DNA of 35,387 bases. Source: Perkinsus olseni (lineage: Eukaryota). A program made the translations under genes and the position numbers. Below the pieces are notes generated by a model. That model worked only from the letters and a program-made list of their open reading frames with translations. It ran no database searches and was not told where the DNA came from. The DNA is taken from NCBI GenBank assembly GCA_013115125.1, contig JABANN010000362.1:1-35387 (forward strand), in the 5' to 3' direction. The first letter of the stretch is position 1. Every line of letters begins with the position of its first letter. Shown here piece after piece: positions 209 to 34,750 of this stretch.

Positions 209-3200
209 ATGGCGCAAGAGGTAACCACCGAAGAACCTAGCTCACCACCACATCTGAGTAAGTACTGGATAATGATGAGATTATCAATCCATTCTTATGA
301 GTAGGTAGGAGAAGGAGAGCATCACTTTGGTCCGGTCAAGTTGGCGGTGACACTTATCGAGTTGGAGATGATGTATGGATTACTCGAGATGATGAGCTTA
401 TGTTTGAGTTAGCGAAGGTAGTGTCGAGAGTATCATCTGGATAAGTACATTTGATGTGTAGGTTGTGAGTTTACCGCAAGCATCCCGTAATGATGGTCAT
501 CCTGAAGTTAGAGTCATGCCCAGATCCACCTCATCCTCGGCAGCCCGGGAACGTATGGTCCCCGTATCACAGTAGTATATGTGCACAGTGTATTATTTCA
601 ATAGTGGTGTTAGCAGGTTGTATCGAGCTGATGGTGGAAGTATTGATGTCGAAACTGTTAATGATATATCACAGTTACCTCTGGTCAATGAGCCAATAGT
701 AAATGATGTTATTAGGAGAAGGTATCTTAGTGACAGCATGTGAGTATGATGATAATAATAATGATACCACACCACCACCGCCAGTAGTATTGGTAGTAGT
801 ACTGGTTTGATGTAGATACACAGCCGCCCGTCCTATGCTTATTGCAGTGAATCCCTTCCGTGATCTTGACAATACAACAGCGGATATAGCTACATATTAT
901 AGGAATATGGTACCAGATGATAGGCGGATAGATGAGGTTGGGAAGAACGTTATCGACTAGGCCAGTGATGATGATGGTGATATTAGGCCGCCCCGCATAT
1001 CTTTCGGATAGCTGCACAGGCATTGACAGCTCATTATATTGGTGCTGGTCTAGTTGAAGAAGCAACGCATGATGATGACAATCTTATCATGAGTATGACG
1101 AAAGCACACTCAACATCATCATCATTGAGTGTTATGATGCAGGTGGAGGTCGAGGGTCCTCTGTAGCATCAGCCTACCAGTCCGGAGTTACTCCCGATGC
1201 TGCTGAACTGAACCTAGTAAATGGTGTGGTAGAGGCTGCTGAAGGTAACGTATCAATACTCATAAGTGGTGAGAGTGGGGCTGGAAAGACCGAGGTAATG
1301 ATATAATGATGATGGTACCGTTGCAGTAGGAGATAATGATGATGAGGATGGTCTTCTCACGTGTTCTGTCAGACATGTAAACATCTCATGAAGTTCTTCA
1401 CTGAGCCTGGTACTACGACTGCTACTGCAGACGACGAAGACTCATCATCCCTCTGCAATGCTCTCATGGCGTTCAACCCGATACTAGAGGCATTTGGCAA
1501 CGCTAAAACCTCGAGGAATGATAACTCCAGCCGATTTGGTAATGGTAGTAGCGGTAGTAACACAGGACTCTGATGCTGGGTATATTAGGTAAGCTGGTTA
1601 AACTATATTTATCACGGCCATCATCCTCGTGTGCTGCTGCTGACGACTTGCGCCATCATCCGACAGTAGCTGGAGGACAGGTCTTATCCTTCCTATTGGA
1701 GAAGAGTCGGATATGCTTGCATGAAGAGGGTCAGAGGAGGGAAGGCTTCTCTGCTGCTCATCGTCAGATAGCAACTCATCATTACAGGTGAACGTAACTA
1801 CCATATATTCTATCAGCTGCTACGTGGTGGTAGTCCTGAGCTACTAGGGCCAGGTGGCCTAGGCTTAGATCCTCAGAAGGAATCGTATAAGTATGTATAA
1901 CAGTAGTAATGCTACCTATTATGCTGCTGCTGCTGTTGTTAGAGTGTTGAATGGTCTCCTACCCTCAATAGCAGGGGTAGATGATGGTAAGGATTATCAA
2001 GTTACTATGAATGCTATGATAACACTAGGTATAGAGAATACTCAAAGTAAGTGATTCCTAAGACCAATGCTGTCTGCATCCTCTCCTACAGGGTTTGATA
2101 TATGTCGAGTATTGGCGGCTATATTACATATTGGTCAAATAGAATGGCAACAGCATCATCATGAAGGGAGTAATGTAGATGAGTCGAGTAAGGAGAGCAC
2201 CCACCACCTGTGGTCCGTACCACTGCTCTTCGCCTTCTGATCTAGCACCATGCATGCCTTCCGATGAGAATCGCTTCATCTTGGTGGCTAAGTTACTGGG
2301 TCTGCATCCTGAGGAGTTCCTCAAAGCAGTCACCGTACAGACGCGCCGACTTCCTGGCAATAATGTAGCTTTAACTGCCGGTCATGGCGGTAGTAGTACT
2401 ACGAGTTGTGGTGTAGGTGGTATTATCACCAGTATCACCACAACAGTGTAGCGATAATCTAGCCAGCATAAGCCGTTATTGCTATTCTATTATCTTCGAG
2501 TGGATTATTTGTAAGATTAACAGCAGTATATCGCCTAAGAGGGATGCTAAGCAAGATACACAACACACATTGAGGTAGTATACTCCCTTCTACCCGTCGT
2601 ATCATTATTATACGACTGAGTATTATCAGATGGGTGAGTGTATTGGACATCTTCGGTTTCGAGTCCTTCGAGTTGCATCGTAACTCACTGGAACAGTTCC
2701 TCGTCAACTTCGCCAATGAGAGGTTACAGCTATGCTTCACCCAAAGAGTCTTCGAGCTTGAGAAGAAGGTCACTACGCAGCATGATCCAACATCGCAGGA
2801 TGATGATGATAATACTATCAGTCTATTTATCAGGTATATGATGCAGAGGGTCTGTCAGGGGACAACCTTGCAGCAGAAGTTGTCAACTATGCTCCAGTGG
2901 AACCATTACTGAGGGTCTTGCAGGCTCCTAACTATGGTTGCATTAGCCATATTGAAAGTGCATGCTTACTACAGGTAGTGTTGAAGCAGTATTCCTCCAT
3001 ACTCTATCAACATTCCCTATCATCCTCATCAGACGGGTACTGATCAGTCTATAATGAACGCCTTCACCAAGGCTGGCTACCCTCTGGACCTACTCACTAC
3101 TGGTATGATACATCAACAACGGCAGAAAGCCTCCTCCTCCTCGTCATCATCCAAAGGGATGGCTAGGAAGGATAACCCAGCTGATATATTTATTATACAT

Positions 3201-6188
3201 CATACAGCGGGGAGTGTTACCTATAACATAAATGGTTTTAGAGATAAGAACATGGATCGTCTAAGTGACGATTTATATGCCCTTATATCACATACGAGTA
3301 ATGATGTATTGAAGGAAGCAGTAGCAGTAGCGTCACCATCATCAGAGGGAGCTCCTCAACAGCAGCAGCAAGGGGGTGGTGCTAGACGCTCCGCTTATAT
3401 AGCACAGAAGTTCGTGCATTCGATAGACTCCTTAATGGCTATGCTAGACCCTACTGAGGCATTCTTTGTACGCTGTGTTAAACCAAATACCCAGAAGAAG
3501 CCAAGGCTATACAATAGTCGTAATGTTGTTAGACAACTGCACAGTCTATCAGTATTCCATGCTATCAAGATGTCCAGCTGTGGCTATTGCTTCCGATTAC
3601 CTTTCCGTCAATTCATCCACCGATATCACCCTTTGAGGTTTCTAAAGGATACTAGTACCGCAACAGCAGCAGGAGCGAATGATGATGCATTATTGATGGC
3701 CATTGGTGATGGTCATGGAGAGGAAGGACAAGAGGAGTGTAGTCATCTCTTAAAGAGGTTCCTTGGTGATGATTATATGAAAGGGGCAGTACTAGGCAAG
3801 ACTATGGTATTGGCTCGGAAGGAATGTCATATGGTGTTAGAGAAGTCCTTAACTTGGGTATTATCGGGTATATTAGGACCGATAGCCACGACTATACGTA
3901 AGACACTGGACCACAAGCGGGCTTTGGAGAAGTTCATTATACGTAGTTCAAGATTGGTCACAATACAGTCTATGCTAAGGTCTTATCTTATCCGTCGTAC
4001 TGAGATGCAGAGGATTCAGTACCGTAGGAGTCTCATCACTGTAGCCCTCCTGCAGCGGAAGGTATACATGTTCCTAGTTGCGAGGGCTGCTGCTATGCAG
4101 TTACAAACGGCATCGAGGAATCTATTGGGTATGCTGGTATACGAGAGGAGACGTAAGAACCTTGAAGTTATGAATGCATCATCAGTATTACAGTCTTATG
4201 GTCGTGCTGCTTTATCAAGAGTAAGATATGAGTGCAGGAAGGAAAGTAGAATTAAGGATAGGGCTGCACGACTCATACAAGGGGCGATGAGGAAGGCCTA
4301 TACTCGACGATCATATGCTAAGAATTGGGTATGGCGTATGTTGGTATGGCCTATGAAAAGGCATTATCAAGTTAAAGTTGATGCTGCATTATTTATACAA
4401 AGTGCATGGAGAGCACATGTAGTTCGAAGGCAGAATCCGCATGTATTGAAGATGATCCAAGTAGCCCGAGAGAGGGTTTGGAGGAGGGTGATGGTAGAGC
4501 AGGCTAAGGGGCTCCTTACAGCGGTTATACAAGGCTTTATACTTAGGGCCACTATGGGTAGATATACACAGGCAGCCATTGTTATACAAACCAGGATGAG
4601 GGGTATACTCAGACCTCGGTGGATGAGGTTACAATTATCATCGGCTATCAAGATACAATCGTTATGGAGGGCTTATGTAGTAAGGGTAAGGGTTGCTATG
4701 GCGAAGGCTAGGATAGTAATAGTAGCATTAGATGGATGCAATAGACGTAGAAGGCGGGCTATGCATCATCTATGGCTTACCACGCTCCTCCAACAGTATC
4801 GTGATAGTAGTCATTCTGGATTATCAATAGTCCATCCAGAGGGTGGAGTATCCCAACAACTTATCGAAGGATACGTACACACTTACCGACATTATGGCCC
4901 CATCATGGACTTCACTGAGTTCCAGGATGGTACTCGCCGTAGCCTGGCCGTAGTATGCCGTCGAGCATCCCCATGCGTAGTAGTGTGGGGTAGTGAGCCC
5001 ATTGGTATGAGTTCATCACTACCTCAAGTGTTACCCCTTCCTAGTTGTCCTAAGCTACACTTCACCTCAGTGGATACTATCTCTTGTGGTGTCGATCATG
5101 CCTTGTTATTGGTCAAGTACAACAACACCAGTGTTATCGTAGCACTAGGGTCCAATACCCGAGGTCAGTGTGGGGTACCCAAGGACAGGCCCGAACTGCC
5201 TACTCCCGAGATAATACTCCAACCACCCGAGGATGGTAGTCGTATCACTAGCGTTGCAGCAGGACCGTTCCATAGTTTATGTACACTTAGTTCATCGTCG
5301 AATGATGGGACTATGGTATGGGGCGCTGCTGATGGGATATCCCTACCATACCACTTCCCACAGGATGTCTTCACACCAACCCCCATGCCCACTACCTTAC
5401 GCTTCAATAAAGTGTATGCCAATACTTGTGGTAATCTGGCTATCACCTCTGATGGCACTCTGGCTGCTTGGTCCGTTAATCCTAAGTTAGGAGTAATGTT
5501 GGGTCACATGGCTGGTGATGATGGTAACTTCTCCTCGCCAAAAGTAGTATCAGCTTTATCCAGCCCTATTGCTGGTGTAAGCACAGATGGTCGTAGGATC
5601 ATTGTCCTCACCAGTGATGGTGTACTATATTATTGGGGCTGTATACGATCTACTTGTATACCCGATAACCTATCAACAGCAGCACCAGGTATCATCTCTG
5701 GACGTGGTGCTTCAGCTTATGAGTGTAGGGTATTACAACCTCTTAGAGTGAATATACCTTATTATACTGCCCCTGTCGCTGAGGTGCATTTGTGTGATCA
5801 TTGCTATGGTGATAGGGTAGTGATTAGGTTGGTTGATGGAACACTACTTGGATGGGATAATATGACGATGAGATATGATACCCTGCATCCTGGGCTGTTC
5901 CAGTATAGACATGCTCACCGTGCTGAGGCAGTCCGAGTTGTACCTAGTGGTAAAGTACTGGGAGTGCTCCCTCCACACGCAGGGGTGGCCCACCATATAC
6001 AAGGGGTTAAGAAGGCTCTATCGAGGATAGAACCCGGGACCATGGATCGGAACCTACGGATACTCCCTATCAAGAGGGGTGGTGTATGTAATGCACCTGC
6101 CGTATCAAGGGCTCCAGGGCCTGATAGACGGTCCAGCCTCGTCATACGAGATCGTGTGGGAGGGAGAGTACCCCCCAGGGATAGGTAG
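209..6188 (+). CDS. Class XIV-type myosin heavy chain with about 8 IQ-like motifs and RCC1/ATS1-like tail (MyoH-like); multi-exon 5' half, single 3.1 kb terminal exon
   Basis: Spliced translation: N-terminal [21 protein letters not shown]-loop [13 protein letters not shown] (~1255-1294); [114 protein letters not shown] and [12 protein letters not shown] repeats. Start ATG 209 inferred. Confidence 0.93.
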
Positions 6189-16967: not shown

Positions 16968-17956
16968 TTATACACACTTTAGATTGAGTATACCCGCACT
17001 TCTCGAGTGTACCTCCTTAATCTTGGTATGTTCCACTAGCGAACGAAGGTTATGCTCCCTTACACCACCTGATGGCAAAGATACCACGACCTCCGTACTA
17101 ACTCTACACACCTGCCATTATTATACTAATATCAATATTCTTCTCTGTGACATGTTGCTGGATATCTCGTAATACCTAAAGGTTGATATCATCTTCATTA
17201 TTGTCCAGTGTCTGATAATACATCCCTCCCTTCTTCAGCAGTTGAGTGGAGCCCGGAGGTAAGGACTCGTCGAACACCACAATGATGCAGTTGGTCAATA
17301 ACTCGCATGGCTGCTGCTGCTGCTGCTGCTGCTGCAGTACTACTCTGATAATGATAGGACTTCACACCCACTACCACACATCAGTACCCTCTTACTGTGG
17401 TATCAGCATCAGCATCAGCATCAGCATCAGCATCAGCATCAGCCGTTATACAGTCGATAGCCTTATGGAAGGTAACAGGCCATGGTGCTGCACATTCTAC
17501 GACCTTCGATACGGCATTGACGTCAGGAGAGGTGTTATCTTTTGATAGAGCTCCGAACTGAATAGAGATGGTTGATACTTGTGATGCCAACTAACTTCCT
17601 ACCACAACACCATCAAGTGATAGATGCTTCTTCCATGAACGTAATGTATTAAGCATGCTATCTATCTCGACTGAGGAATATATGAAATCCCCACCACGGC
17701 ATCTCAGCATCACTACGACCTCCACATTGTATTCAGAACATATCTTGATAGTATCTTTGATTAGCTCATCAGATGGGCTCAACCTGATTAGTGTTGCGTA
17801 TGGTCAGAACAGGAAGGCTTATTACCCATCAAACTCCATCTCTGAGCACAACTCAATTCTATCTGCTCCATTACTGCATGCAACCTGTACTTCCGATAAA
17901 CTGCTACAACATATCTCATAGGTTTCCACCAAGGGAGTCGCGAGTAATGATGACAT
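16968..17956 (-). CDS. CUTC: Copper homeostasis protein CutC (TIM barrel)
   Basis: YEICCSS..GADRIELCSEMEFDGLSPS; VVMLRCRGGDFIYS..EI..M; DGVVVGAL; PVTFHKAID; GVRRVLTSG; IMAGGGVR..N..EVHS. Confidence 0.93.
17402..17443. repeat. (ATCAGC)7 hexanucleotide repeat encoding (Ala-Asp)n in CutC
   Basis: Seven perfect copies; minus-strand frame reads TADADADADADADT directly after FHKAIDC. Confidence 0.9.
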
Positions 17957-18307
17957 TGCGAGTGCCGACTGAATGTTGAATCCGCTTTAAAAACAACTCG
18001 GCACTGGAAGGCACTTGAACCGCTAGCTTCGTGTCGCCCGTAGAGACGTTATTTTGTGCAGCAATGTGTGATGCATGTGTTTCCCCATGATGTTACTATA
18101 AGACCAACGCAAATCCCATACTATAGAGAGGAGACCTTCCTGATACACTGCTGATGGGAAAAACCTCTTCAAGATCTCTCAATGATAAGATGCGGCACGA
18201 GGTGAAGATGTTCACAACGATGCCATGAAGTGGTGGTGACCTTGGCAAGGTCAACGACATGAACCATGAAAAAGTGAGAAGAGCGGTGGTCGTCGTCGTC
18301 ATCGGAC

Positions 18308-21300
18308 TCAGCAAGTCTCTAATGATAGTAAAAAGTCTCGTAGCCTATCGCAAGCATCATTGATATCCTCTACCGATGTAGCGTATCTACCAATACATAA
18401 TCATCATCAATGATGATGATTATTATTATTACGATAGTCTAACCACGGGTTGTGTGGTGTAGAAACCTTCACCGGGTACAATAGATAAGCCTTGTGATGA
18501 GAGGAGTTGTTCGCCTGAGACACACCAGTAACAGCAATATTATGGCAATAGCAGTATTACAAAGTTGAGAAACTGCGAGTGTATCATCTCCCTTCAACTC
18601 TCTCATCTTGTTAACATAATAACCGAGATCGGGCATAGCATAGAACGCTCCTTTTGGAGGTTCTCTTGGGCAGACTACGTTTGGTATAGCCTGGAGACGA
18701 GCGAAAAGTAAATCCCTTTTATGTTGGAGTTGAGCCAGCTTCTTCTGATGCCATGATGATGGTACATCACGCAGGGCAGCCAAGCCCCCTGCTTGGGATG
18801 CCGTGCCTGATGATGATGATGATGATAGGGGGTGGCTGACTATGGTTATCATTATTCGATAGTATTATGATGATACTACATGCACAGCCAGTTATCTGAC
18901 CTAATATCTTCCCCATACCCTTTATCCATTTATCATCACTGCATACAGCATAACCCAGTCGTAAGCCAGTCATAGCGAATGCTTTAGAGAACCCTCCAAT
19001 GGTACTGACATAATATCGATAACGAATGATATCAGCAGCAGCAGCGGTGGTGGTGATGGTATTATTACATTATTCGACTCCTCACTGTTGGATTACATAT
19101 ACCTGCTAGAGTATAATGAACATCACCATCATAGACTAATCTTTCGTAACTAACTTAGGATCATAACAAGAGGGGGGGGGGGTTTCATTATTACAGATCA
19201 TCACATACCACCATGATATGGGTATGTTCCTCGAGGAGTGCCCCTATACGTATTAACCTTACACATTAGCGACATTAGCAACCCTACCAATACTAGTGAT
19301 TATTCTTACTCATCCTTCGGTATAACATGACCAGTTGGATTACATGGTGAGTTTAATAACAATACTCTAGTCTTGGGTGTGATAACCTAATGGGTGTTGG
19401 TATTAGGTGTACTCATGATACTGATGAGTATTACTGATGCTATGCTATGAGCTGTGATAGCATAGTCCGGTGAGGATGTATGAATGAAGACTGGAGTGGC
19501 GTTACACATGAGGGCCAAGTCAGGGAATGTAGGCCAACAAGGGGTTGGTATTATCATCTAAATGATACTATCACTATGACGATGATGACGATGATGGAAA
19601 TGTGGCAATGTACCTCATCTCCCGTATTAAGAATAGTCATAAGGGCAGCAGCTATGGCAGCCTTCCCACTGGCAGTGATGATGACATTACTACCATTAAT
19701 GCATTGGATATTCTTCCGCGTACCAAGATCATCAGCCACAGCTTCCCCTACATGTAATAGCGGCTACCATGATGATAATGATGATAACGAATATTATTAC
19801 TAAGTTCGAATATGCCGTTGGATGGTGAATATTTACACCCGAATCCTGATGTTAATGACGATACTATCGCTGATATAACCTTAAACATGAATAGGACATG
19901 AATCGTCGTCATGCTTCTTTGTTGTGGTTGTTGTTACCTGTGTTGGTGGTGAGAAGTCTGGTTCCCCTACCCCCAATGCACCTTGTATATCCTTACCCTG
20001 CCTCTTCAATTCTAATGCTTGTCCATGTAACCTAACGGTAGTACTTGATGGTACTCTGTTACATAAATCTGATAGACTAGTAGTATCTCCAGGGGTAGTC
20101 TGAAGACTGTGATTAACATGAGCGACGGTGGTGATGATGATGCATTACCCGTTCTTGTAACATATCTTTAACGGATTGTAGACTATTGTTGAAGGCTATG
20201 AGTTGTCGCCCAGAAGCTTTATTATATCGATATAGGCCTTTGAATAAGGCATCACTGAGTGCAATTGCAAGAGGACTAGTAGCAATACTGGACGATGATG
20301 ATGATGATGATGATGATGATGATCATTACCTATCATTGATAGTATTATGCATAAGCTTGATAAGGCTTCTGAAGCCTAATGTATCGATATTAGTAGTATG
20401 GAGTCTGGGTGTGATACCACCAAGTACCCTTCCAGTTAGATGTGTAATGAACTGTGTTGCAGCAGATATCTTATCATGTTCCGCAGTTGACATACTAACA
20501 AGTCTACATCCACATCGCTCGAATAGACTCAACCACCAACTTCTACTATCATCATCATCATCATCATCACCATGCGATGTTGGTGATGATGTGCTACCAT
20601 TACCATCATCATCATCATATACCAAGGGTAAGTTATACCAACCATATTTACCGCTATCGGGTCCAAACATCGGGTGTGTGCATAGGATACTCACGTTGGG
20701 ATAATCTTGGAACGCCTCTCTCATTATCTAAGGCAATCGTTATTGAGTGGCCATAATGATGATGATGATGATGATCCAGCTGGTGTGGAGTAGTACTACA
20801 GGAGTACTACCTGTTGTGGGTATTCCTTTACACTGCATACATCCACTAACAGGATATCCTTCCTCTTACCCCTCCCTCTTTCGGACTTCATGATTGCTGA
20901 TAGTTTATTGACAACTTCTGCAAATGATAATACTGAAGTTGCAATAACAATAATATCTGGCTTCTCATTATCCAGCATATCCTTCATATCTGGATAGTAT
21001 CTAAGGAGGACAATGCAGCATTGATCAGGAGTTATTATTATCATTACCTAATACCAAGAGTAGCAGCATGGTGAGCGCATCCAGTATCATCCTCCTTCCT
21101 GTTAGTAGCACTAAAATTGACGCTACCACCACCACCACCAGTACCACATAATCTTGTCAAGCGCTCACATAGGAATTGTGCAAACTTGCCGTATCTTAAT
21201 ATAGTGAGATGACGATATTATAATCACTGATAATAATAACGAATGATGATGATGTACCCTATGAAAGACACAGATCTCCTCTTCCCCTGATGTGGTGGTG

Positions 21301-22780
21301 GAGTGGTATGAGAAGTCTCAGGTAGGTTAGTAGGTGATCGAGTAGATGGTGATATTGTGTGGTGATAAGATGATGAGGAGGGATACACGGACAATACCTG
21401 ATATTGATGATGAGAGCACCGAAGATGATGATACGTATGATGAAACACCCACTCTAACAAAAGGGTTGAACTCCTTTAAGGTCTCTATTGCCCTGTCGAC
21501 CGCTTTATCCTGACCCGGCATCTTCAATACATCGATGTAGCATAGGTAATGATAATATCCCCCTGCCATATTCCCATGCTGTTGTGGATTGGAGTATGCT
21601 TCACCATCATCACTAGTATTATCAACTAACGATGTTTCCAGACTACCGAGAAGAAGAGGACATCAATAGTATGATGATTATGATGATGATGATGACATGC
21701 GTGTGGTACTACTTTGTCGTTTCGTCCAACATATCAGGCGGCACTGGTCTTGATTCCAATTTACATAACTGCAAGCCTCTGTGACTAAAAGCTGATAACG
21801 ATCTGTGTAGGCTACCGGGCCTGCACAACAACAACATGACTATGATGATGATTGGTATCATCCCCTTACGTATCATGGACTCTGAAGACCAAACTAACTT
21901 TAGTAGGTATAGGAGTGTTGTGCAGGGCTACGTATGGGGATGGGGCGCGGCCCAGTAATAAGAATCTTACAACAACAAAAAGAAGAAGAGTAGCAGTGAT
22001 GGCGGTATGATGATTACCTTGTATGATTAAAGCTAACATCCTGTATATCAGTATCAGCAACATGTAAGTTATAGATATCAGCCGCTAATCTGCTACTTAT
22101 AGCAGCACCAGCACCAGCAGCAGCAGCCTGTCTTGGTGTTGTTGTTGTTGTTGTTGTTGATAGCATTTTAGCTGCCCCTGCTGTATCAGAGTGTAACATT
22201 GGTTTAATATTATGTTTACGTAAATAGTGCGCACATTGTGCTAATGCTTGTGGATGGGAATATGCTACTTCAATGTCGTCTGGACTGAGCACCTTATCTT
22301 TAGTTAATAGACAATGTTTAACAGGGTAATCTAACTCCCCACGTATATACACACTACCACTGTAGCGTAGCAGTAAGTCTGAATAACAACACCATGCCTT
22401 CTTGTTATTGGTGATGATGATTATGATTATTACCATAATTAGCATGTATAGTTCCACCAAGAGTGTTCTCAATAGGTATCATGCCTAGATCCGCATGACC
22501 TGTCTTTGATGATGCTACAGCTTCGAATACATCCTCAAATGCTTCATAACCAACAGCCTGTATTCTATCTCTATCCACTTTAGGATAATGTATATTACTA
22601 CTATTACATAAATACTCGTATCTACTTAAGAGTGTAGCCCTCCTCCTCAGCCTCCTCCTGATGTTGATGTTGTTATTATTACATAGCAGCCTCGCTGTAT
22701 GCTCCCCTCTGTCCTTGGAATGCTACACGTAGTAGTGATGATGAGTTAGTGTCGGTGATAGGCTCATCATGAGTAGACAT
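18308..22780 (-). CDS. Trifunctional fusion: prephenate/arogenate dehydratase + ACT, TyrA (arogenate/prephenate) dehydrogenase, class Ib PLP aspartate/prephenate aminotransferase
   Basis: Dehydratase: VAFQGQRGAYSEAA, PIENTLGGTI, SHPQALAQC, DTAGAA, NHTRF, PGSL..LESRP, VRVLSVYP. TyrA: IGYGKFAQFL, LLVDVCSVKEYP, CTHPMFGPDSG, EHDKISAATQFITH, NDSDALFKGLYRYN. Aminotransferase: GVGEPDF, SGKAAI, LNSPCNPTG, GFSKAFAMTGLRLGY, PKGAFY, VPGEGF..VRLSYA; stop at 18308-18310. Confidence 0.9.
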
Positions 22781-22949
22781 GATGATAAGGATAATAATGA
22801 AAACTGTAAGAGCATTCGTTAACAGCAAGAGCACCATCATAACCATCACCATCAGTCCATGTTTCTAACACTGATACATGAGTATGCATAATGGTGGTAA
22901 GGTATTAACATCATTATCATGGTGGTGGTGGTGATGACGGTGGTATCAT

Positions 22950-24205
22950 CCCTCATCTCCATTAGGTTTTGCTAACCTCATAGCGGTCTAGAGTATAACG
23001 AGTACTCATGTTCTTCTTGTTAAGTGGGTACTACATTATATAATCCATTATCATGTGCTGCATCAACTGATGCTGCCCTTACTGCTGCCTTCCAGTCTAT
23101 GTGACACCATACACCACTACTACCCTTCTTGTCATCAACATCATCATCATCATCATCATCATGCTAACATGATAATAATAATAATAATACTCATCGCAGT
23201 ACATTGTTATAACTATTCCTACTGCTGCTGCTGCTGCTGTTCTTTGCCAATGTAATGAGCCTGCTGGTAATGGTAGACGGAAATCCACAGGAGCTGCTGC
23301 TTTGGTGGTGTCCATTGACTGTATGACGAAGGAAGAGGCATCCTCTTCTTTAGTATCATCCCCTTCCCGATTTACATCACCATCGTCGACCATATTCTCA
23401 TCAATTTCCTGAAATACCCTATCCCAAGGCGGCGTGATGATTCTGATTATCATTATTGCTATACTACATTATCATCACATTGTTCTTCATTACTGTTGGA
23501 GGCCTCAGCGGCAGCAGTGATAAGCTGCAATTCAGCCATTCTCCTATGCTCATGTGTATTCATTAATATATTCTTAACAACATGCACCACCCCTGCTGTT
23601 ATCTCATTAGGCATATACCCAATATTAATCAGGATACGTTCATACCTGCTCATCCACCACCACCATCAGCAGCAGTAACAGGAGTAGTGGTTGTTGTGGT
23701 ATTGATGTTGTTACGCATTTCTAATCTCTCTTTCCCTCTTCAACATCTCCCTCCATTTAGCGTTGGTCTTCATCAATTCATTCTTAAGTTTGATAACTTC
23801 TTCCTCATCATTATCATTACTCCTTCTCTGCCCTTGACGATGCTTATCATGATGATCATGGGTCACTACCGCATTGGTAGCTGTTATCTGCCATTCCAGC
23901 CGATCCCTGATCAACATCATCATCAAACAACAAGGATGGGTATAGTGTGGTAGCGACGATTACTACCCTCTGATAAGGTCCAACTCCTTCGTTTTATCTT
24001 CTATTACCGAGTGTAAGTCCCTAATCTTACCATTAGCATGATCCAAGTCATGTTTACATTCATCGAGTTGATGTTGTAAATTGTGTATACGCTCAGTAGC
24101 CAACGTACCACCACTGTTCTCATGTGATAATAATGACGATGATGATGATACTCTTCGACTATTAACTTTACTATCGTATGATGATGATGATAGACACCCA
24201 CCCAT
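22950..24205 (-). CDS. Coiled-coil protein with N-terminal MGGCLS myristoylation/palmitoylation-like motif; 3' end uncertain
   Basis: ATG 24205 MGGCLSSSS; heptad-like ERIHNLQHQLDECKHDLDHANGKIRDLHSVIEDKTKELD and EVIKLKNELMKTNAKWREMLKRE; several GT-AG introns. Confidence 0.55.
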
Positions 24206-24341: not shown

Positions 24342-25764
24342 ATGCGAAGTACTCTAAATCATTCACTGTATCATCACTATTGTTGTATGATGAGCAGCTG
24401 CCATAATCGGTATTGGGGTGGATGTACCCGCCGATTATTCATACATACATCATCATCAACTACTGCTATGAATAGTGAAAAGAATGGTAGTATGATAAGT
24501 AAACAAGGACATGATGTCATCACTACATCAACAACAACAAGCACCACCACCCAACCTAGAGTAACAGCAGATTATGAAAAAGCGTTAATGGAGTGAGTAC
24601 TAGTGGTGTCTCCAATGATCTCAATATTTATTATAGATATCGCATGAATGAACAACGTAAAAGAAAGAGAGATAGTATGGTAATAATAACAACAGTGATA
24701 ATAACATGATAACCACCGCGATGATGCTGTTCTATGATAGGGTAACATCATGTTTGGTATGTGTCTTGGTGCAGCAGTACTGTATATAGCTTCATCATTG
24801 GAAGATGTTACTAGTGTTTTACAGTAATAGCAACAGCAGTCTGATACTATCATACAAGGGTTATTATGTTGGTTTAGGTACTGTATACCACCAATGCTAG
24901 CTTCATTACCAATGAATAGTGTACAAAATATAATAACAAGGTTGGCTAGGTATGATTATCTACCAGTTGATTATAACAGCGAAGATCCGTATATGATTCA
25001 GAGCATTCAGGGTATAACATTTAACAATCCGATAGCACTATCACCTGGGATTGATGTTAATTGTGATGGGCCACATTCATTGATAAAACTAGGTTTTGGC
25101 GCTGTTGAGATTGGTACTATAACCATTGAACCGCAACAACAACAAAAAGGAGCATATGAACTACAATTGTCCGGTGCTGACGAAGATGATGATAAGAGTG
25201 TAGAAGGAGTGGTATCATCCAGAATTATGATTAATCAGGAAAATGAGGGCGGATCCCATAATATACTTCGCCGATGGTTGCGGATATTATATAATTTATC
25301 TACGGATTATAAGTCATGTATGGATAATAAAGGGAATGATGATGATGATGCTGCTGTTCGGGTGAAACGCGATATGAATACTTTCACTATACATTATCCA
25401 TCTGAAGATGATGTCCGCAATAGATGGTTAATGCTGCAAAGTGTTGGAGTACACGAGATAAGCAAAAGGCTTGATAACATTGATTTTACTCCGGATCTGG
25501 TACGTATTGGTAGAGTTGGTGTATCTATGAAAGCATCAACAACAAGAGAGGTTAGGATTGGTATTGAAGCATTAGCAGATAGAGTTCATTGGATATCGTT
25601 AGATTGTCGTCATATTGAAAATGACGTAATATCACAATCAGTCTGCTGCTGCTGCTGCTGCTGCTGCTGGACTTCTTTGTCGTAGATACCAAGAATACTA
25701 CATCTTTATCAAGCTGCATTAGCCCGGAGGAAGGACTTTGATGATCGTTATCGAAAGGAGTACG

Positions 25765-32681: not shown

Positions 32682-34347
32682 ATGAGCAAGCATCATGTTA
32701 ATGAAGAGGACGATAATATCAAAGCCTCTGCTGCCGAGTATGTCCCCTTTGAGGATTATCAGAAGGATATAATAACCTTGAGGGTAACTTGACGTATATA
32801 TGTAATATCCAATAGGGTCCTCCAACTGTTTCATAGGCACAGGCAGCTGCAGCATCAGCGACACCAGGGACTGATCATCATGGGGATGATGAAGGTGAAG
32901 ATAATAACATTACTTCACACCCAACAGCCCCTACCAATCCTTCAACAACAACAACACCACCAGCAGCAGGAGCAGCGGCACTGGTATCATCTAGATCCCT
33001 ACCTAATATACATGATGTAATAGTAGTGTTGTTATTAGTCGTTTTATTATAGTAGTATTATCAGACCGATGCATTGACAGCATCTGATATCGCCAAACCT
33101 GGTGGATTCAGACGTCATTACATCCAGGCAACAACAACAACTTCGCCTAACAACAACAATGATGATGATGATGGCATATTGACAAACACACCGGAGGAGA
33201 GTAATAGTAGACAAACACCACTAGTAGAGAATAGTAGTAATGCTGGCAATGATCTAAAAGTACCACTACTATCACTCCCCGAGGATAATAATAATAACAA
33301 TACTGGTACAGTACCCAAGAGACGCGATAACAAGGTAATATGTTAGTGTTGTTGTTTATTCTTGGACCTATAACCTTAGGATGATGTTACGCCAAGGCCG
33401 ACGTCGTTTGATGATGATTATCATGATAATAATGGAGATGGTGGTAGTTCCAATATCGACATTAATAGTCCAGCTATTGATGATGAAGATGAGAATCACG
33501 AGGCATTGAAGGAGTCTATTATGGATAACTTGACATACATGTTCGATTTCTTCACAGATGTTGAAAATAATAATGGTTACGATGACGATAGAGGTAGTAG
33601 TAGTAGTATAAGTTGGTGATGTATTATTATTATCTTATGTGGCTCCTCATAGGTGGCTTGTTTGATGATAGAACTTCAAAAGAACTGGCGTTACGTGTGC
33701 GGCCTCATAAAAAGAGCGGTATTATTAAAACGGTAATAGCACTAACAATCATGATAATAATAATACTATTATTATTACCAAACAGATATTGTCAATTTTC
33801 AAGTCCTTCATTGGTGTTGGTATCTTATTCTTGCCTAATGCGTTTCATAATGGTGGATGGTTATTCAGTTGTTTATGTATGATATTATCAGCATTATTAT
33901 CAACTATTGGAATGTATAAATTAAGTTCATGTCATGAGAGAACGCATAAGACATATCCGCAAATGGGCTATGTAGCATATGGTACTATTGGTTATTATAC
34001 CATATCATTCCAGCTAGCACTCAGCCAATTCTGTTTTGGTATAACAGGTGTTATATACATCACAAATACTCTGAGTAATAATAATAATACTGTCATCGTT
34101 GTTGTTATAATACCTATGTCGTTGTTATCAGGTCATATAGTAGCATGTATAGTATCCGGTGATATCTCAGAAGATGCCGGTGTTAGTGAGAGTGTTAGAG
34201 AAGGATTAGCTACCAACTATGATAAGATAGTACATGCCTTCTATGTTATAGTACTTCTTACGTATATACCATTATCCTTCATAAGACGGATTGGTAATAT
34301 GAAGTTTACTAACTTGGTAATAATAATAACGACAACAACAACAACAA

Positions 34348-34416
<69 letters not shown>

Positions 34417-34750
34417 CAATAGGACATAAGCATTTGTTGTTGTCAGGTCGGTGATCTATGTATCTTACTCGCAGTAATATTTGTTTTGATTGCTGCATGT
34501 AGGACACTTTCATCTAATGGTATAGCAGATAATGTTAAAGCTATAGAAGGGGATAGGATGTTGTCATTTATTGGTACTGCTGTATACTCTTTTGAAGGCA
34601 TTGGCCTGGTAATACCAATACGTGAGAGTATGGCCAAACCACAATATTTCAATATTCTACTGAGTTGTATGATCACCTTCATGGGCCTCATGCTATGTGC
34701 TTTTGGGTTGATAGCATATCTGGCCTGGGGACCGACGGTTGAACCAGTGG

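What the first reader, a model, noticed from the sequence alone, without database searches (positions are those of the whole stretch)
18308..22780. One polypeptide appears to carry the whole post-prephenate Phe/Tyr pathway (dehydratase-ACT + TyrA + aminotransferase)
Seen: the dehydratase C-terminus (VLSVYP) runs without a stop, within one exon (~21397-21258), through a Ser/Pro/Thr/His linker into the TyrA Rossmann strand (SVSFIG/YGKFAQFL). TyrA's end (..VKDMLQER) joins in frame across a ~50-nt GT-AG intron (~20148-20100) to TTPGDTTSLSDLCNRV..GVGEPDF, and that exon has no in-frame ATG of its own. Known: these three families convert prephenate to Phe and Tyr; they are separate proteins in plants, and apicomplexans are generally aromatic amino-acid auxotrophs. 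Inference: a branch-point enzyme that could channel one intermediate to both products in an alveolate parasite lineage, and a pathway animal hosts lack. No chorismate mutase domain is visible. Related fusions may exist in other protists such as stramenopiles, so novelty is unverified.
Basis: partly seen in the sequence, partly recalled or inferred. Interest (0 to 1): 0.9.

Follow-up and report, generated by a model that had tools for sequence, protein, structure and literature searches.

The report
Fused Phe/Tyr pathway gene, Perkinsus-like
One expressed gene of a Perkinsus-like parasite really does join the three enzymes that turn prephenate into phenylalanine and tyrosine, but the same fusion is already on record in many other protists, so it is a real yet ordinary member of a known, little-studied kind.

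Summary
On the minus strand, 22780 (ATG) to 18308 (TGA), 22 exons and 21 GT-AG introns (45-83 nt) give one 1090-codon frame. Its order is prephenate/arogenate dehydratase, ACT, a 32-residue Ser/Pro/Thr/His linker, TyrA dehydrogenase, then class I aminotransferase.

Spliced contigs from three public runs show 15 of the 21 introns directly, including those at both domain junctions. The other six fit by contig-length accounting. One 2943-nt contig runs from inside the dehydratase domain to the 3' end. The 5' end carries a Perkinsus-type spliced leader 23 nt before the ATG. No listed internal loose end carries it.

The single polypeptide and the alveolate parasite lineage stand: 72% identity to Perkinsus marinus, inside a chromerid and dinoflagellate clade. 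Channelling and substrate route are untested.

Novelty fails. 104 of the 120 listed relatives carry the same three families. They include oomycetes, a labyrinthulomycete, a haptophyte, dinoflagellates, Chromera, Arcella and P. marinus. I found no biochemical study in nine literature searches. Verdict: new member of a known, uncharacterised kind; modest interest.

The parts
22804..22805 (-). AG acceptor for spliced-leader trans-splicing; the mRNA body starts at 22803
   Evidence: table 7: contigs of X1 and X4 end their fit at 22805. They run on with letters whose reverse complement equals positions 7-20 of PmaSL1 as printed in PMC3101222. In X1 Illumina adapter letters follow. Genome context is ..CTTACAG|TTTTC.
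22781..22803 (-). 5' UTR, 23 nt
18308..22780 (-). Coding region: 22 exons, 21 GT-AG introns of 45-83 nt, 1090 codons plus TGA, about 119 kDa
   Evidence: model and intron ends; 15 joints listed; 6 fitted by contig-length accounting; mass.
21947..22732 (-). Prephenate/arogenate dehydratase catalytic domain (residues 17-222; exons 1-4), with the TRF motif at residues 215-217
   Evidence: Pfam PF00800: 92.1 bits on exon 3 and 28.7 bits on exon 2, cut-off 25.2. Alignment; coordinates.
21380..21901 (-). ACT-type regulatory domain (residues 238-353), with ESRP at 270-273, ending ..FVRVLSVYP
   Evidence: Aligns with the ACT region of the relatives. Pfam ACT did not match the exon pieces. In Arcella P0113 the ACT match is below cut-off (20.2 against 27).
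21284..21379 (-). Linker 1: 32 residues rich in Ser/Pro/Thr/His, inside exon 7
   Evidence: Not conserved among relatives. No Pfam match on exon 7.
20149..21283 (-). TyrA (arogenate/prephenate dehydrogenase) domain, residues 386-674. It holds GYGKFA (394-399), HPMFGP (524-529), an acidic low-complexity insert, and Asp638 at the position of GmPDH1 residue 222
   Evidence: phmmer of exon 10 against soybean prephenate dehydrogenase 1 (5T95), E 4e-20, with the aligned residues. Weak PF02153 match on exon 9. Alignment.
20100..20148 (-). 49-nt GT-AG intron between the last TyrA codon (..QER) and the first aminotransferase codon (TTPGD..)
   Evidence: Joint 20099/20149 in X1, X13 and X4. Phase 0 on both sides.
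18311..20099 (-). Class I (Ib-type) aspartate/prephenate-like aminotransferase domain, residues 675-1090. It holds GEPDF, NPTG (856-859), FSKAF with the PLP lysine (919-923) and VRLSY (1062-1066)
   Evidence: PF00155 on exon pieces, best 29.1 bits against cut-off 19.7. N-terminal exon matches PDB class Ib AATs (6F77, 1BJW). Alignment.
18136..18307 (-). 3' UTR up to the end of the contigs
   Evidence: X1 record 1 and X4 record 9 end at 18136; X13 record 5 ends at 18177. No poly(A) is visible in contigs.

Best explanation
This is the orthologue, in a Perkinsus-like alveolate, of a widespread protist gene. One SL-trans-spliced mRNA encodes one polypeptide of about 119 kDa, in the order dehydratase, ACT, linker, TyrA dehydrogenase, class Ib aminotransferase.

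Shown: gene structure, splicing, the 5' cap site, one open frame, conserved collinear architecture, and retention of the family motifs in all three catalytic domains.

Inferred mechanism: the enzyme takes prephenate, made elsewhere by a separate chorismate mutase. Its aminotransferase domain makes arogenate. The dehydratase domain turns arogenate into Phe, and the NAD(P)+-dependent TyrA domain turns it into Tyr. The ACT domain would give Phe feedback on the dehydratase branch. With no N-terminal extension, it would act in the cytosol. Because each of the three parent enzymes is a homodimer or tetramer (recalled), it would act as a homo-oligomer.

The keto-acid route (phenylpyruvate and 4-hydroxyphenylpyruvate, then transamination) would use the same three domains and is not excluded.
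For: Gene and mRNA:
- 21 GT-AG introns give a 1090-codon frame.
- 15 joints are listed in three runs of three studies, one of them a declared RNA-Seq library (X13). The other six fit contig lengths exactly.
- X4 record 9 (2943 nt) covers, by length accounting, about 22160 to 18136. That is the end of the dehydratase domain, ACT, TyrA, the aminotransferase, the stop and the 3' UTR.
- The SL letters lie at 22805 only.
- The share of sampled 31-mers held is 0.50-0.60 in 18 runs of the 19 that hold the stretch, which come from 10 studies. By my arithmetic, about 0.59 is expected from exon-only words.

Families: PF00800 and PF00155 pass their cut-offs on exon pieces. The TyrA core matches 5T95 at 4e-20.

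Motifs, from the alignment (their roles are recalled): TRF, ESRP, GxGxxA, HPMFGP, NPTG, S-K, and the C-terminal Arg.

Arogenate route:
- The residue aligned to GmPDH1 position 222 is Asp. PMC7196213 names Asn222 of GmPDH1 as the specificity switch (passage). That arogenate enzymes carry Asp there is recalled.
- The aminotransferase is of the class Ib group that includes Arabidopsis prephenate aminotransferase 5WMH.

Conservation: 42 of 45 best relatives align end to end. 104 of 120 listed relatives carry all three families. The tree puts the window protein with P. marinus (SH-aLRT 100), then Chromera and P0195 (97), then the Prorocentrum group (98).
Against: - No protein-level or enzymatic evidence exists here or in any paper I found.
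- Contigs cannot show rare isoforms, so minor internally SL-capped or polyadenylated mRNAs are not excluded.
- No single contig covers the whole mRNA. There is a break at the (ACA)7 run near 22160-22168.
- Single contigs in X1, X13 and X4 leave the window sequence at two low-complexity coding repeats (20601/20604 and 21128/21140). This is unexplained.
- The Perkinsus pair sits on a long stem branch (1.23 changes per column).
- It departs from its relatives at several points: GxGxxA in place of GxGxxG, SGKAA in place of GAKQ, and Pro where Rhizobium AAT A (6F77) has Lys12. Lys12 is a residue I recall as linked to prephenate aminotransferase activity.
- Pfam ACT and PDH_N did not reach their cut-offs on exon pieces.
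- Chorismate mutase and the shikimate pathway could not be sought, because no genome is held.
Confidence: 0.6

Rival explanations
1. The gene is one transcription unit, but the cell makes separate enzymes from it. This could happen by internal SL trans-splicing or polyadenylation at the junctions, or by proteolytic cleavage in the low-complexity linkers.
For: Perkinsids trans-splice an SL onto mRNAs (PMC3101222, passages seen). Linker 1 is a 32-residue unconserved S/P/T/H stretch. Contigs drop rare variants (tool note).
Against: Of the 19 loose ends listed (3 more not shown), only those at 22805 carry SL letters. The aminotransferase's first exon has no Met. Both junctions stay in frame, and the same collinear fusion is kept in distant lineages, which argues for selection on the joined form. 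One contig of 2943 nt crosses both junctions.
Confidence: 0.1
2. A single trifunctional polypeptide that works by the keto-acid route. Prephenate goes to phenylpyruvate (dehydratase) and to 4-hydroxyphenylpyruvate (dehydrogenase). The aminotransferase domain then makes Phe and Tyr. It would act as a general aromatic/aspartate aminotransferase rather than a prephenate aminotransferase.
For: The Perkinsus-type aminotransferase has Pro at the position of Lys12 of 6F77. Its best solved relatives are bacterial aspartate aminotransferases (6F77 219 bits, 1J32 215 bits), ahead of Arabidopsis prephenate aminotransferase (5WMH 189 bits), for the P. marinus proxy. Nothing in the sequence tells prephenate from arogenate use by the dehydratase domain.
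Against: Asp lies at the TyrA specificity position. The class Ib group contains the known prephenate aminotransferases. For Arcella's orthologue the best solved match is 5WMH itself (378 bits against 310). Position 12 varies across the fused family (Q, A, A, P, S, V), so it may not be diagnostic here.
Confidence: 0.25
3. One or more domains are catalytically dead in the fast-evolving Perkinsus lineage. The protein then serves only part of the pathway or has a regulatory role.
For: Long stem branch of the Perkinsus pair (1.23). Altered GxGxxA and SGKAA motifs. Low-complexity inserts in the TyrA domain.
Against: All the motifs I checked are present in all three domains. Window and P. marinus are 72% identical over 736 columns, as expected under purifying selection. 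The gene is present as spliced RNA in runs of several studies.
Confidence: 0.05

Closest known systems
Perkinsus marinus ATCC 50983 XP_002773877.1 / C5LCL0, 'Aspartate aminotransferase, putative' (P0001, 807 aa)
   Same: Nearest relative: 72% identity over 736 columns and sister in the tree (SH-aLRT 100). Same order of dehydratase, TyrA pieces and aminotransferase in one model.
   Different: The public model lacks the blocks matching window residues about 285-394 (second half of ACT, linker, first Rossmann strand) and about 513-648 (TyrA catalytic core). These are probably missed exons, which I could not test. It is named for one activity only.
Three-domain proteins of oomycetes and other protists. 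Examples: Phytophthora infestans XP_002907870.1, Plasmopara halstedii XP_024579830.1 'tyrosine biosynthesis bifunctional enzyme', KAL7694755.1 'putative prephenate dehydratase, prephenate dehydrogenase, aminotransferase', Hondaea GBG24031.1, Chromera Cvel_15617, Emiliania XP_005777329.1, Prorocentrum CAK0793571.1, and the Arcella intermedia protein P0113
   Same: Same domain order and length (about 950-1080 aa). End-to-end alignment at 33-37% identity. No N-terminal extension in most.
   Different: The window protein is the divergent Perkinsus-type form, with other linkers, an acidic insert in TyrA, and altered GxGxxA and SGKAA motifs. None of these proteins has, to my knowledge or in my searches, been assayed.
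Nannochloropsis oceanica fused arogenate dehydratase-arogenate dehydrogenase gene (PMC3499364, legend of Figure S5C seen), and the two-domain proteins P0014 and P0101
   Same: Dehydratase-ACT fused upstream of TyrA, in the same order.
   Different: No aminotransferase domain. P0014 has an N-terminal extension of about 135 residues, which the window protein lacks.
Plant arogenate pathway: separate plastidial prephenate aminotransferase (Arabidopsis, PDB 5WMH), arogenate dehydratases and TyrA arogenate dehydrogenases; soybean PDH1 (5T95, 5WHX)
   Same: The same three enzyme families. Asp at the TyrA specificity position, as recalled for arogenate dehydrogenases.
   Different: Three separate genes with plastid transit peptides, against one fused and apparently cytosolic protein.
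Bacterial fusions: chorismate mutase-prephenate dehydratase (P-protein), chorismate mutase-TyrA (T-protein), and hisHb-tyrA of Rhodobacter sphaeroides (PMC1173090, passages seen)
   Same: Fusion of neighbouring steps of Phe/Tyr synthesis. An aminotransferase-TyrA fusion has a precedent.
   Different: A different aminotransferase family (HisH-type against class Ib), a different order, and a chorismate mutase domain that this gene lacks. No three-domain form appeared among the best 80 of at least 582 candidate places in 185,579 prokaryote genomes.

Membership tests
Prephenate/arogenate dehydratase (Pfam PF00800 PDT) with ACT domain | Match to the PDT profile above the curated cut-off | tested here: met
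   Exon 3 piece: 92.1 bits, E 4.9e-26. Exon 2 piece: 28.7 bits. Cut-off 25.2.
Prephenate/arogenate dehydratase (Pfam PF00800 PDT) with ACT domain | Conserved T-R-F motif of the catalytic domain and ESRP motif of the regulatory domain (roles recalled) | tested here: met
   TRF at residues 215-217 and ESRP at 270-273. Both columns are shared with the relatives.
Prephenate/arogenate dehydratase (Pfam PF00800 PDT) with ACT domain | Match to the ACT profile (PF01842) | tested here: inconclusive
   No match on the exon pieces, which split the domain over four exons. Arcella P0113 scores 20.2 bits, under the cut-off of 27. PF01842 is listed in the precomputed column for only 3 of the 120 relatives (P0204, P0212, P0230).
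Prephenate/arogenate dehydratase (Pfam PF00800 PDT) with ACT domain | Substrate: prephenate or arogenate | not testable with these tools
   Needs an enzyme assay.
TyrA dehydrogenases (PF02153 PDH_N, PF26213 TYRAAT1_C) | Significant similarity to a TyrA of known structure or profile | tested here: met
   Exon 10 against soybean PDH1 5T95: E 4e-20, chain residues 118-222. The PDH_N match on exon 9 is only 15.3 bits against a cut-off of 26.5. Relatives carry PF02153 and PF26213.
TyrA dehydrogenases (PF02153 PDH_N, PF26213 TYRAAT1_C) | N-terminal dinucleotide-binding GxGxxG motif and the HPMFGP block with the catalytic His (roles recalled) | tested here: met
   GYGKFA at 394-399, with the third Gly replaced by Ala, as in P. 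marinus. HPMFGP at 524-529.
TyrA dehydrogenases (PF02153 PDH_N, PF26213 TYRAAT1_C) | Residue at GmPDH1 position 222, the switch of prephenate against arogenate specificity (PMC7196213 passage) | tested here: met
   Asp638 aligns with residue 222 of chain 5T95. All aligned relatives except Emiliania P0213, whose alignment is poor in this block, have Asp in this column. That Asp marks arogenate enzymes is recalled, not seen in a call.
Class Ib aspartate/prephenate aminotransferases (PF00155) | Match to Aminotran_1_2 above cut-off, and nearest solved relatives of class Ib | tested here: met
   29.1 bits against 19.7 on the exon 19 piece. The N-terminal exon matches 6F77 and 1BJW. P. marinus proxy: 6F77 219 bits, 1J32 215, 5WMH 189.
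Class Ib aspartate/prephenate aminotransferases (PF00155) | PLP-binding lysine and the NPxNPTG, D-x-x-Y and C-terminal Arg blocks (roles recalled) | tested here: met
   FSKAF at 919-923, NSPCNPTG, CDDLYE and VRLSY at 1062-1066.
Class Ib aspartate/prephenate aminotransferases (PF00155) | Lys (or Arg/Gln) at position 12 of the N-terminal arm, recalled as a marker of prephenate aminotransferase activity in class Ib enzymes | tested here: not met
   Pro aligns with Lys12 of 6F77 and of 1BJW. The marker is recalled and I could not find the paper. The position varies across the fused family.
Protist three-domain dehydratase-ACT-TyrA-aminotransferase fusion | All three domains in one frame, in this order, collinear with the family | tested here: met
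   (one frame). (42 of 45 best relatives align from residue 26 or earlier to 1078 or later)..
Protist three-domain dehydratase-ACT-TyrA-aminotransferase fusion | Expressed as one mRNA | tested here: met
   Spliced contigs cross both junctions in X1, X13 and X4. The SL is at the 5' end only. Contigs cannot exclude rare shorter forms.
Protist three-domain dehydratase-ACT-TyrA-aminotransferase fusion | Placement within the family as expected from the organism's kinship | tested here: met
   With P. marinus (100), then Chromera and P0195 (97), then the Prorocentrum group (98), by SH-aLRT in a quick LG+G4 tree of 35 rows.

The most novel reading that the evidence does not exclude
The protist three-domain protein is a true trifunctional 'arogenate module'. 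It takes prephenate and hands arogenate directly to two competing active sites in one homo-oligomer. The ACT domain sets the Phe:Tyr split. This would be a cytosolic, self-contained branch-point machine that no one has yet assayed. In Perkinsus, a mollusc parasite whose hosts lack the pathway, it would be a single target for the whole post-prephenate route.
Probability: 0.25. Interest if true: 0.55.

Novelty: new member of a known kind. Interest (0 to 1): 0.3.

Why it matters
For genome annotation, it gives an RNA-supported, full-length model of a gene whose only close public relative (P. marinus) appears to be mis-modelled and is named for one activity.

For biology, it adds perkinsids to the lineages that keep the whole post-prephenate Phe/Tyr route on one polypeptide. 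The tree suggests the fusion was inherited vertically within the dinoflagellate-chromerid-perkinsid group, not assembled anew.

The fused enzyme family is widespread, yet I found no study of it in the papers I could search. Its route, regulation and possible channelling are open and easy to test with recombinant protein. Because animals lack the pathway, it may interest those looking for targets in Perkinsus.

None of this is surprising to someone who has looked at domain architectures in UniProt or Pfam.

Tried and rejected
- Whole-genome context (chorismate mutase, shikimate genes, extra copies): no genome is held for this window, so this is not tested.
- Raw RNA reads of X24: only 29 reads laid, all partial and at (CAT)n-type repeats. 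They say nothing either way.
- Rfam and tRNA scans of the window: nothing found.
- Earlier notes of this scan: none for this genome.
- Literature. Nine searches and passages of 15 papers gave no description or assay of the three-domain fusion. I found only the Nannochloropsis two-domain gene, bacterial fusions, the Asn222 statement and the Perkinsus SL.
- Dornfeld et al. 2014 is not held. One search, on the Lys12 marker, found nothing relevant. Supplements are closed; the figures of PMC3499364 and PMC12142466 that might bear on this were not seen.
- Prokaryote origin. A scan with P0220 alone found no relative. A scan with alignment A1 kept 80 loci, mostly Bacteroidota, all matching only the aminotransferase part (query residues about 522-928) at 31-39% identity. 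tblastn of P0220 found no dehydratase or TyrA match in any of the 80 loci, within 2 kb flanks at E 1e-5. So I found neither a three-domain bacterial form nor an operon precursor.
- ESM Atlas hits under 0.9 (dehydratase+aminotransferase clusters in Bacteroidota; chorismate mutase+aminotransferase in archaea) are leads only.
- Rejected: assembly chimera or chance ORF, because of the spliced RNA contigs and the end-to-end homology.


Full report
What is there. The finding lies on the minus strand. Stop-to-stop frames and the raw sequence show short coding pieces separated by GT..AG stretches of 45-83 nt. Pfam on the pieces gave prephenate dehydratase (PF00800, 92.1 and 28.7 bits, cut-off 25.2) and a weak PDH_N match (15.3 bits, under the cut-off). 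It also gave Aminotran_1_2 on four pieces, best 29.1 bits against a cut-off of 19.7.

RNA evidence. One search for public runs found 19 that hold the stretch, from 10 studies. Eighteen hold 0.50-0.60 of the sampled 31-mers. By my arithmetic, about 0.59 is what exon-only words would give.

I laid four runs on 17300-23700. X1, X4 (both 'RNA?', a guess) and X13 (a declared RNA-Seq library) gave contigs that skip parts with CT..AC ends on the plus strand, which is GT..AG on the minus strand. Fifteen such joints are listed; nine more were not shown.

The listed joints include 21194/21258 and 21395/21451, which flank the exon holding the ACT end, the linker and the TyrA start. They also include 20099/20149, between TyrA and the aminotransferase.

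The six introns not listed (numbers 2, 3, 4, 10, 19, 21) were placed from the coordinates and lengths of the contig pieces (X1 records 1 and 4, X13 record 8, X4 record 9). GT-AG ends, reading frame and homology also guided them. The lengths add up exactly.

The fourth run, X24 (raw RNA reads), gave only 29 partial reads at simple repeats and is uninformative.

Gene model. 22 exons and 21 GT-AG introns give 3270 coding bases plus a TGA stop. The ATG is at 22780 and the stop at 18310-18308, which are exactly the finding's limits. The protein has 1090 residues, about 119 kDa.

X4 record 9 is a single 2943-nt contig. By length accounting it begins near 22160, inside the dehydratase domain, and ends at 18136, crossing both junctions. 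A second contig (X4 record 10, X1 record 4) covers 22168 to the 5' end. The break lies in an (ACA)7 run.

At 22805 the contigs of X1 and X4 run on with letters that are the reverse complement of positions 7-20 of PmaSL1, the 22-nt Perkinsus marinus spliced leader printed in PMC3101222 (passage). The leader's last AG coincides with the genomic AG at 22805-22804. So the mRNA is trans-spliced 23 nt before the ATG.

Of the 19 loose ends listed (3 more not shown), none at an internal place carries these letters. Depth falls from hundreds to zero just upstream. Downstream it falls to a few per cent in the next gene. I do not use depth to rank expression.

Domains. In alignment with relatives, residues 17-222 are the dehydratase domain, with RVAFQG, IPIEN, SHPQALAQC, DTAG and TRF. 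Residues 238-353 are the ACT-type domain, with ESRP, ending ..FVRVLSVYP. Residues 354-385 are an unconserved S/P/T/H linker.

Residues 386-674 are TyrA. It holds GYGKFA, HPMFGP and EHD..TQFITHLTGR, plus an acidic low-complexity insert. It ends ..VKDMLQER. Residues 675-1090 are the aminotransferase, with GEPDF, SGK, NSPCNPTG, DDLYE, GGFSKAFAMTGLRLGY and VRLSY.

Exon 10 matches soybean prephenate dehydrogenase 1 (5T95) at E 4e-20, and Asp638 aligns with chain residue 222. PMC7196213 states that Asn222 of GmPDH1 is the single residue that switches TyrA substrate specificity (passage). That arogenate-specific enzymes have Asp there is my recollection of Schenck et al. 2017.

The aminotransferase's first exon matches class Ib aspartate aminotransferases (6F77 at 3.9e-05; Thermus 1BJW). 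In these alignments, and in that of the P. marinus proxy, Pro stands where 6F77 has Lys12. I recall Lys12 as important for prephenate aminotransferase activity. I could not find the source.

The protein has no N-terminal extension. The two-domain relative P0014 has about 135 extra residues. A cytosolic location is an inference from this.

Relatives. With the largest dehydratase exon as query, the best hit was Perkinsus marinus 'Aspartate aminotransferase, putative' (P0001, 807 aa, 66% identity). It carries PDT and Aminotran_1_2. It lacks the blocks matching window residues about 285-394 and 513-648, probably missed exons.

Arcella intermedia P0113 (958 aa) has PDT, ACT (below cut-off), PDH_N and Aminotran_1_2 in the same order. 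Searching with P0113 over its whole length among proteins of 526-1677 residues gave 298 hits. Of the 120 listed, 104 carry PF00800, PF00155 and PF26213 and/or PF02153. Fifteen lack PF00800 and one lacks PF00155.

PF26213 is named TYRAAT1_C in the Atlas output. Source names include several Phytophthora species, Plasmopara, Pythium, Globisporangium, Peronospora, Bremia, Hyaloperonospora, Albugo and Lagenidium. They also include Hondaea, Emiliania, Prorocentrum/Polarella, Chromera, Arcella, and one record filed under Batrachochytrium salamandrivorans.

Some are already named 'putative prephenate dehydratase, prephenate dehydrogenase, aminotransferase' or 'tyrosine biosynthesis bifunctional enzyme'. 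The Atlas holds a 63-member cluster with all three families.

The window protein aligns from residue 26 or earlier to residue 1078 or later with 42 of its 45 best stored relatives, at 33-37% identity.

I built a quick maximum-likelihood tree: 35 rows that I chose from the 247 stored proteins, named ones first; 1000 columns; LG+G4; SH-aLRT only. It puts the window protein with P. marinus (100). Next come Chromera and an unnamed EukProt protein (97), then the Prorocentrum group (98). Oomycetes, the Hondaea group, Emiliania and Arcella lie elsewhere. The Perkinsus stem is long (1.23). This pattern fits vertical descent of the whole fusion within this alveolate group.

Prokaryotes. A pattern scan of 185,579 species' genomes with P0220 found nothing. 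All match only the aminotransferase part at 31-39% identity, and most are Bacteroidota. None of the 80 loci has a dehydratase or TyrA match within the 2 kb flanks. So I found no bacterial three-domain form and no operon precursor.

Literature. In nine searches and passages of 15 papers I found a fused arogenate dehydratase-dehydrogenase gene noted for Nannochloropsis (PMC3499364, legend of Figure S5C). I also found bacterial fusions, including hisHb-tyrA (PMC1173090). I found no description or assay of the three-domain protein. Subscription papers, Dornfeld et al. 2014 (not held) and supplements were out of reach, so 'not in print' is not established.

How it most likely works. Shown: one gene, one spliced SL-capped mRNA form, one frame, three intact-looking catalytic domains plus a regulatory domain, and a conserved order. 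Inferred: prephenate from a separate chorismate mutase is transaminated to arogenate. Arogenate is then dehydrated/decarboxylated to Phe or oxidatively decarboxylated to Tyr on the same homo-oligomer, with Phe acting through the ACT domain.

Asp at the TyrA switch position and the class Ib aminotransferase favour the arogenate route. The missing Lys12 and the divergent Perkinsus motifs leave the keto-acid route open. Channelling is speculation.

Unexplained. Single contigs in X1, X13 and X4 leave the window sequence at the Asp-run (20601/20604) and the Gly-run (21128/21140), while window-like contigs cross both. Alleles or strains with other inserts, or assembly forks, are possible.

Verdict. 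The arogenate mechanism is plausible (overall 0.6 for the full statement). The architecture is already widespread in public databases, so this is a new member of a known but unstudied kind.

Noticed in passing
window 18387-22682 (introns of the gene), and the whole window: 10 of the 21 introns hold three or more tandem CAT/ATC/TCA units (up to 30 nt in intron 10). CATCATCAT occurs 52 times on the plus strand and 96 times on the minus strand of the window. Similar triplet runs lie in coding sequence: the (ACA)7 Thr run near 22140-22165, the (GGT)5 Gly run near 21126-21140, and the (GAT)n Asp runs in exon 10.
   Followed up: partly
window 20601-20604 and 21128-21140: Single contigs in X1, X13 and X4 fit the window on one side of these coding repeats and run on unlike it for up to 255 letters, without spliced-leader letters. 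Window-like contigs cross both places. The cause is unknown.
   Followed up: no
P0001 (Perkinsus marinus XP_002773877.1) against window residues 285-394 and 513-648: The public P. marinus model lacks the second half of ACT, the linker, the first Rossmann strand and the TyrA catalytic core. This is probably an exon-skipping annotation error.
   Followed up: partly
window 17594-17986, minus strand: The next gene downstream is of the CutC family (PF03932: 33.9 and 27.5 bits on two exon pieces). It begins less than about 150 nt beyond the end of the contigs of the fused gene.
   Followed up: partly
window 2985-6185, plus strand: A 1067-codon open frame holds the C-terminal part of a myosin head, an IQ motif and an RCC1-like domain. 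This looks like a myosin with an RCC1-type tail.
   Followed up: no
window 24831-25682 (+) and 33729-34451 (+): Open frames with a dihydroorotate dehydrogenase fragment (27.7 bits) and a transmembrane amino-acid transporter (Aa_trans, 68.6 bits). No other aromatic-pathway gene was seen among the ten longest frames tested.
   Followed up: no
proteins (for example P0122, P0124, P0127, P0164, P0193): 15 of the 120 listed relatives carry TyrA and aminotransferase families but no dehydratase family (566-841 aa). They may be truncated transcripts or true two-domain forms.
   Followed up: no
ESM Atlas output for P0113: Low-scoring leads. One is a Bacteroidota-dominated cluster with dehydratase plus aminotransferase families (0.83). 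Others are archaeal clusters with chorismate mutase plus aminotransferase (0.76). The 80 mostly Bacteroidota loci showed no dehydratase next to the aminotransferase.
   Followed up: partly
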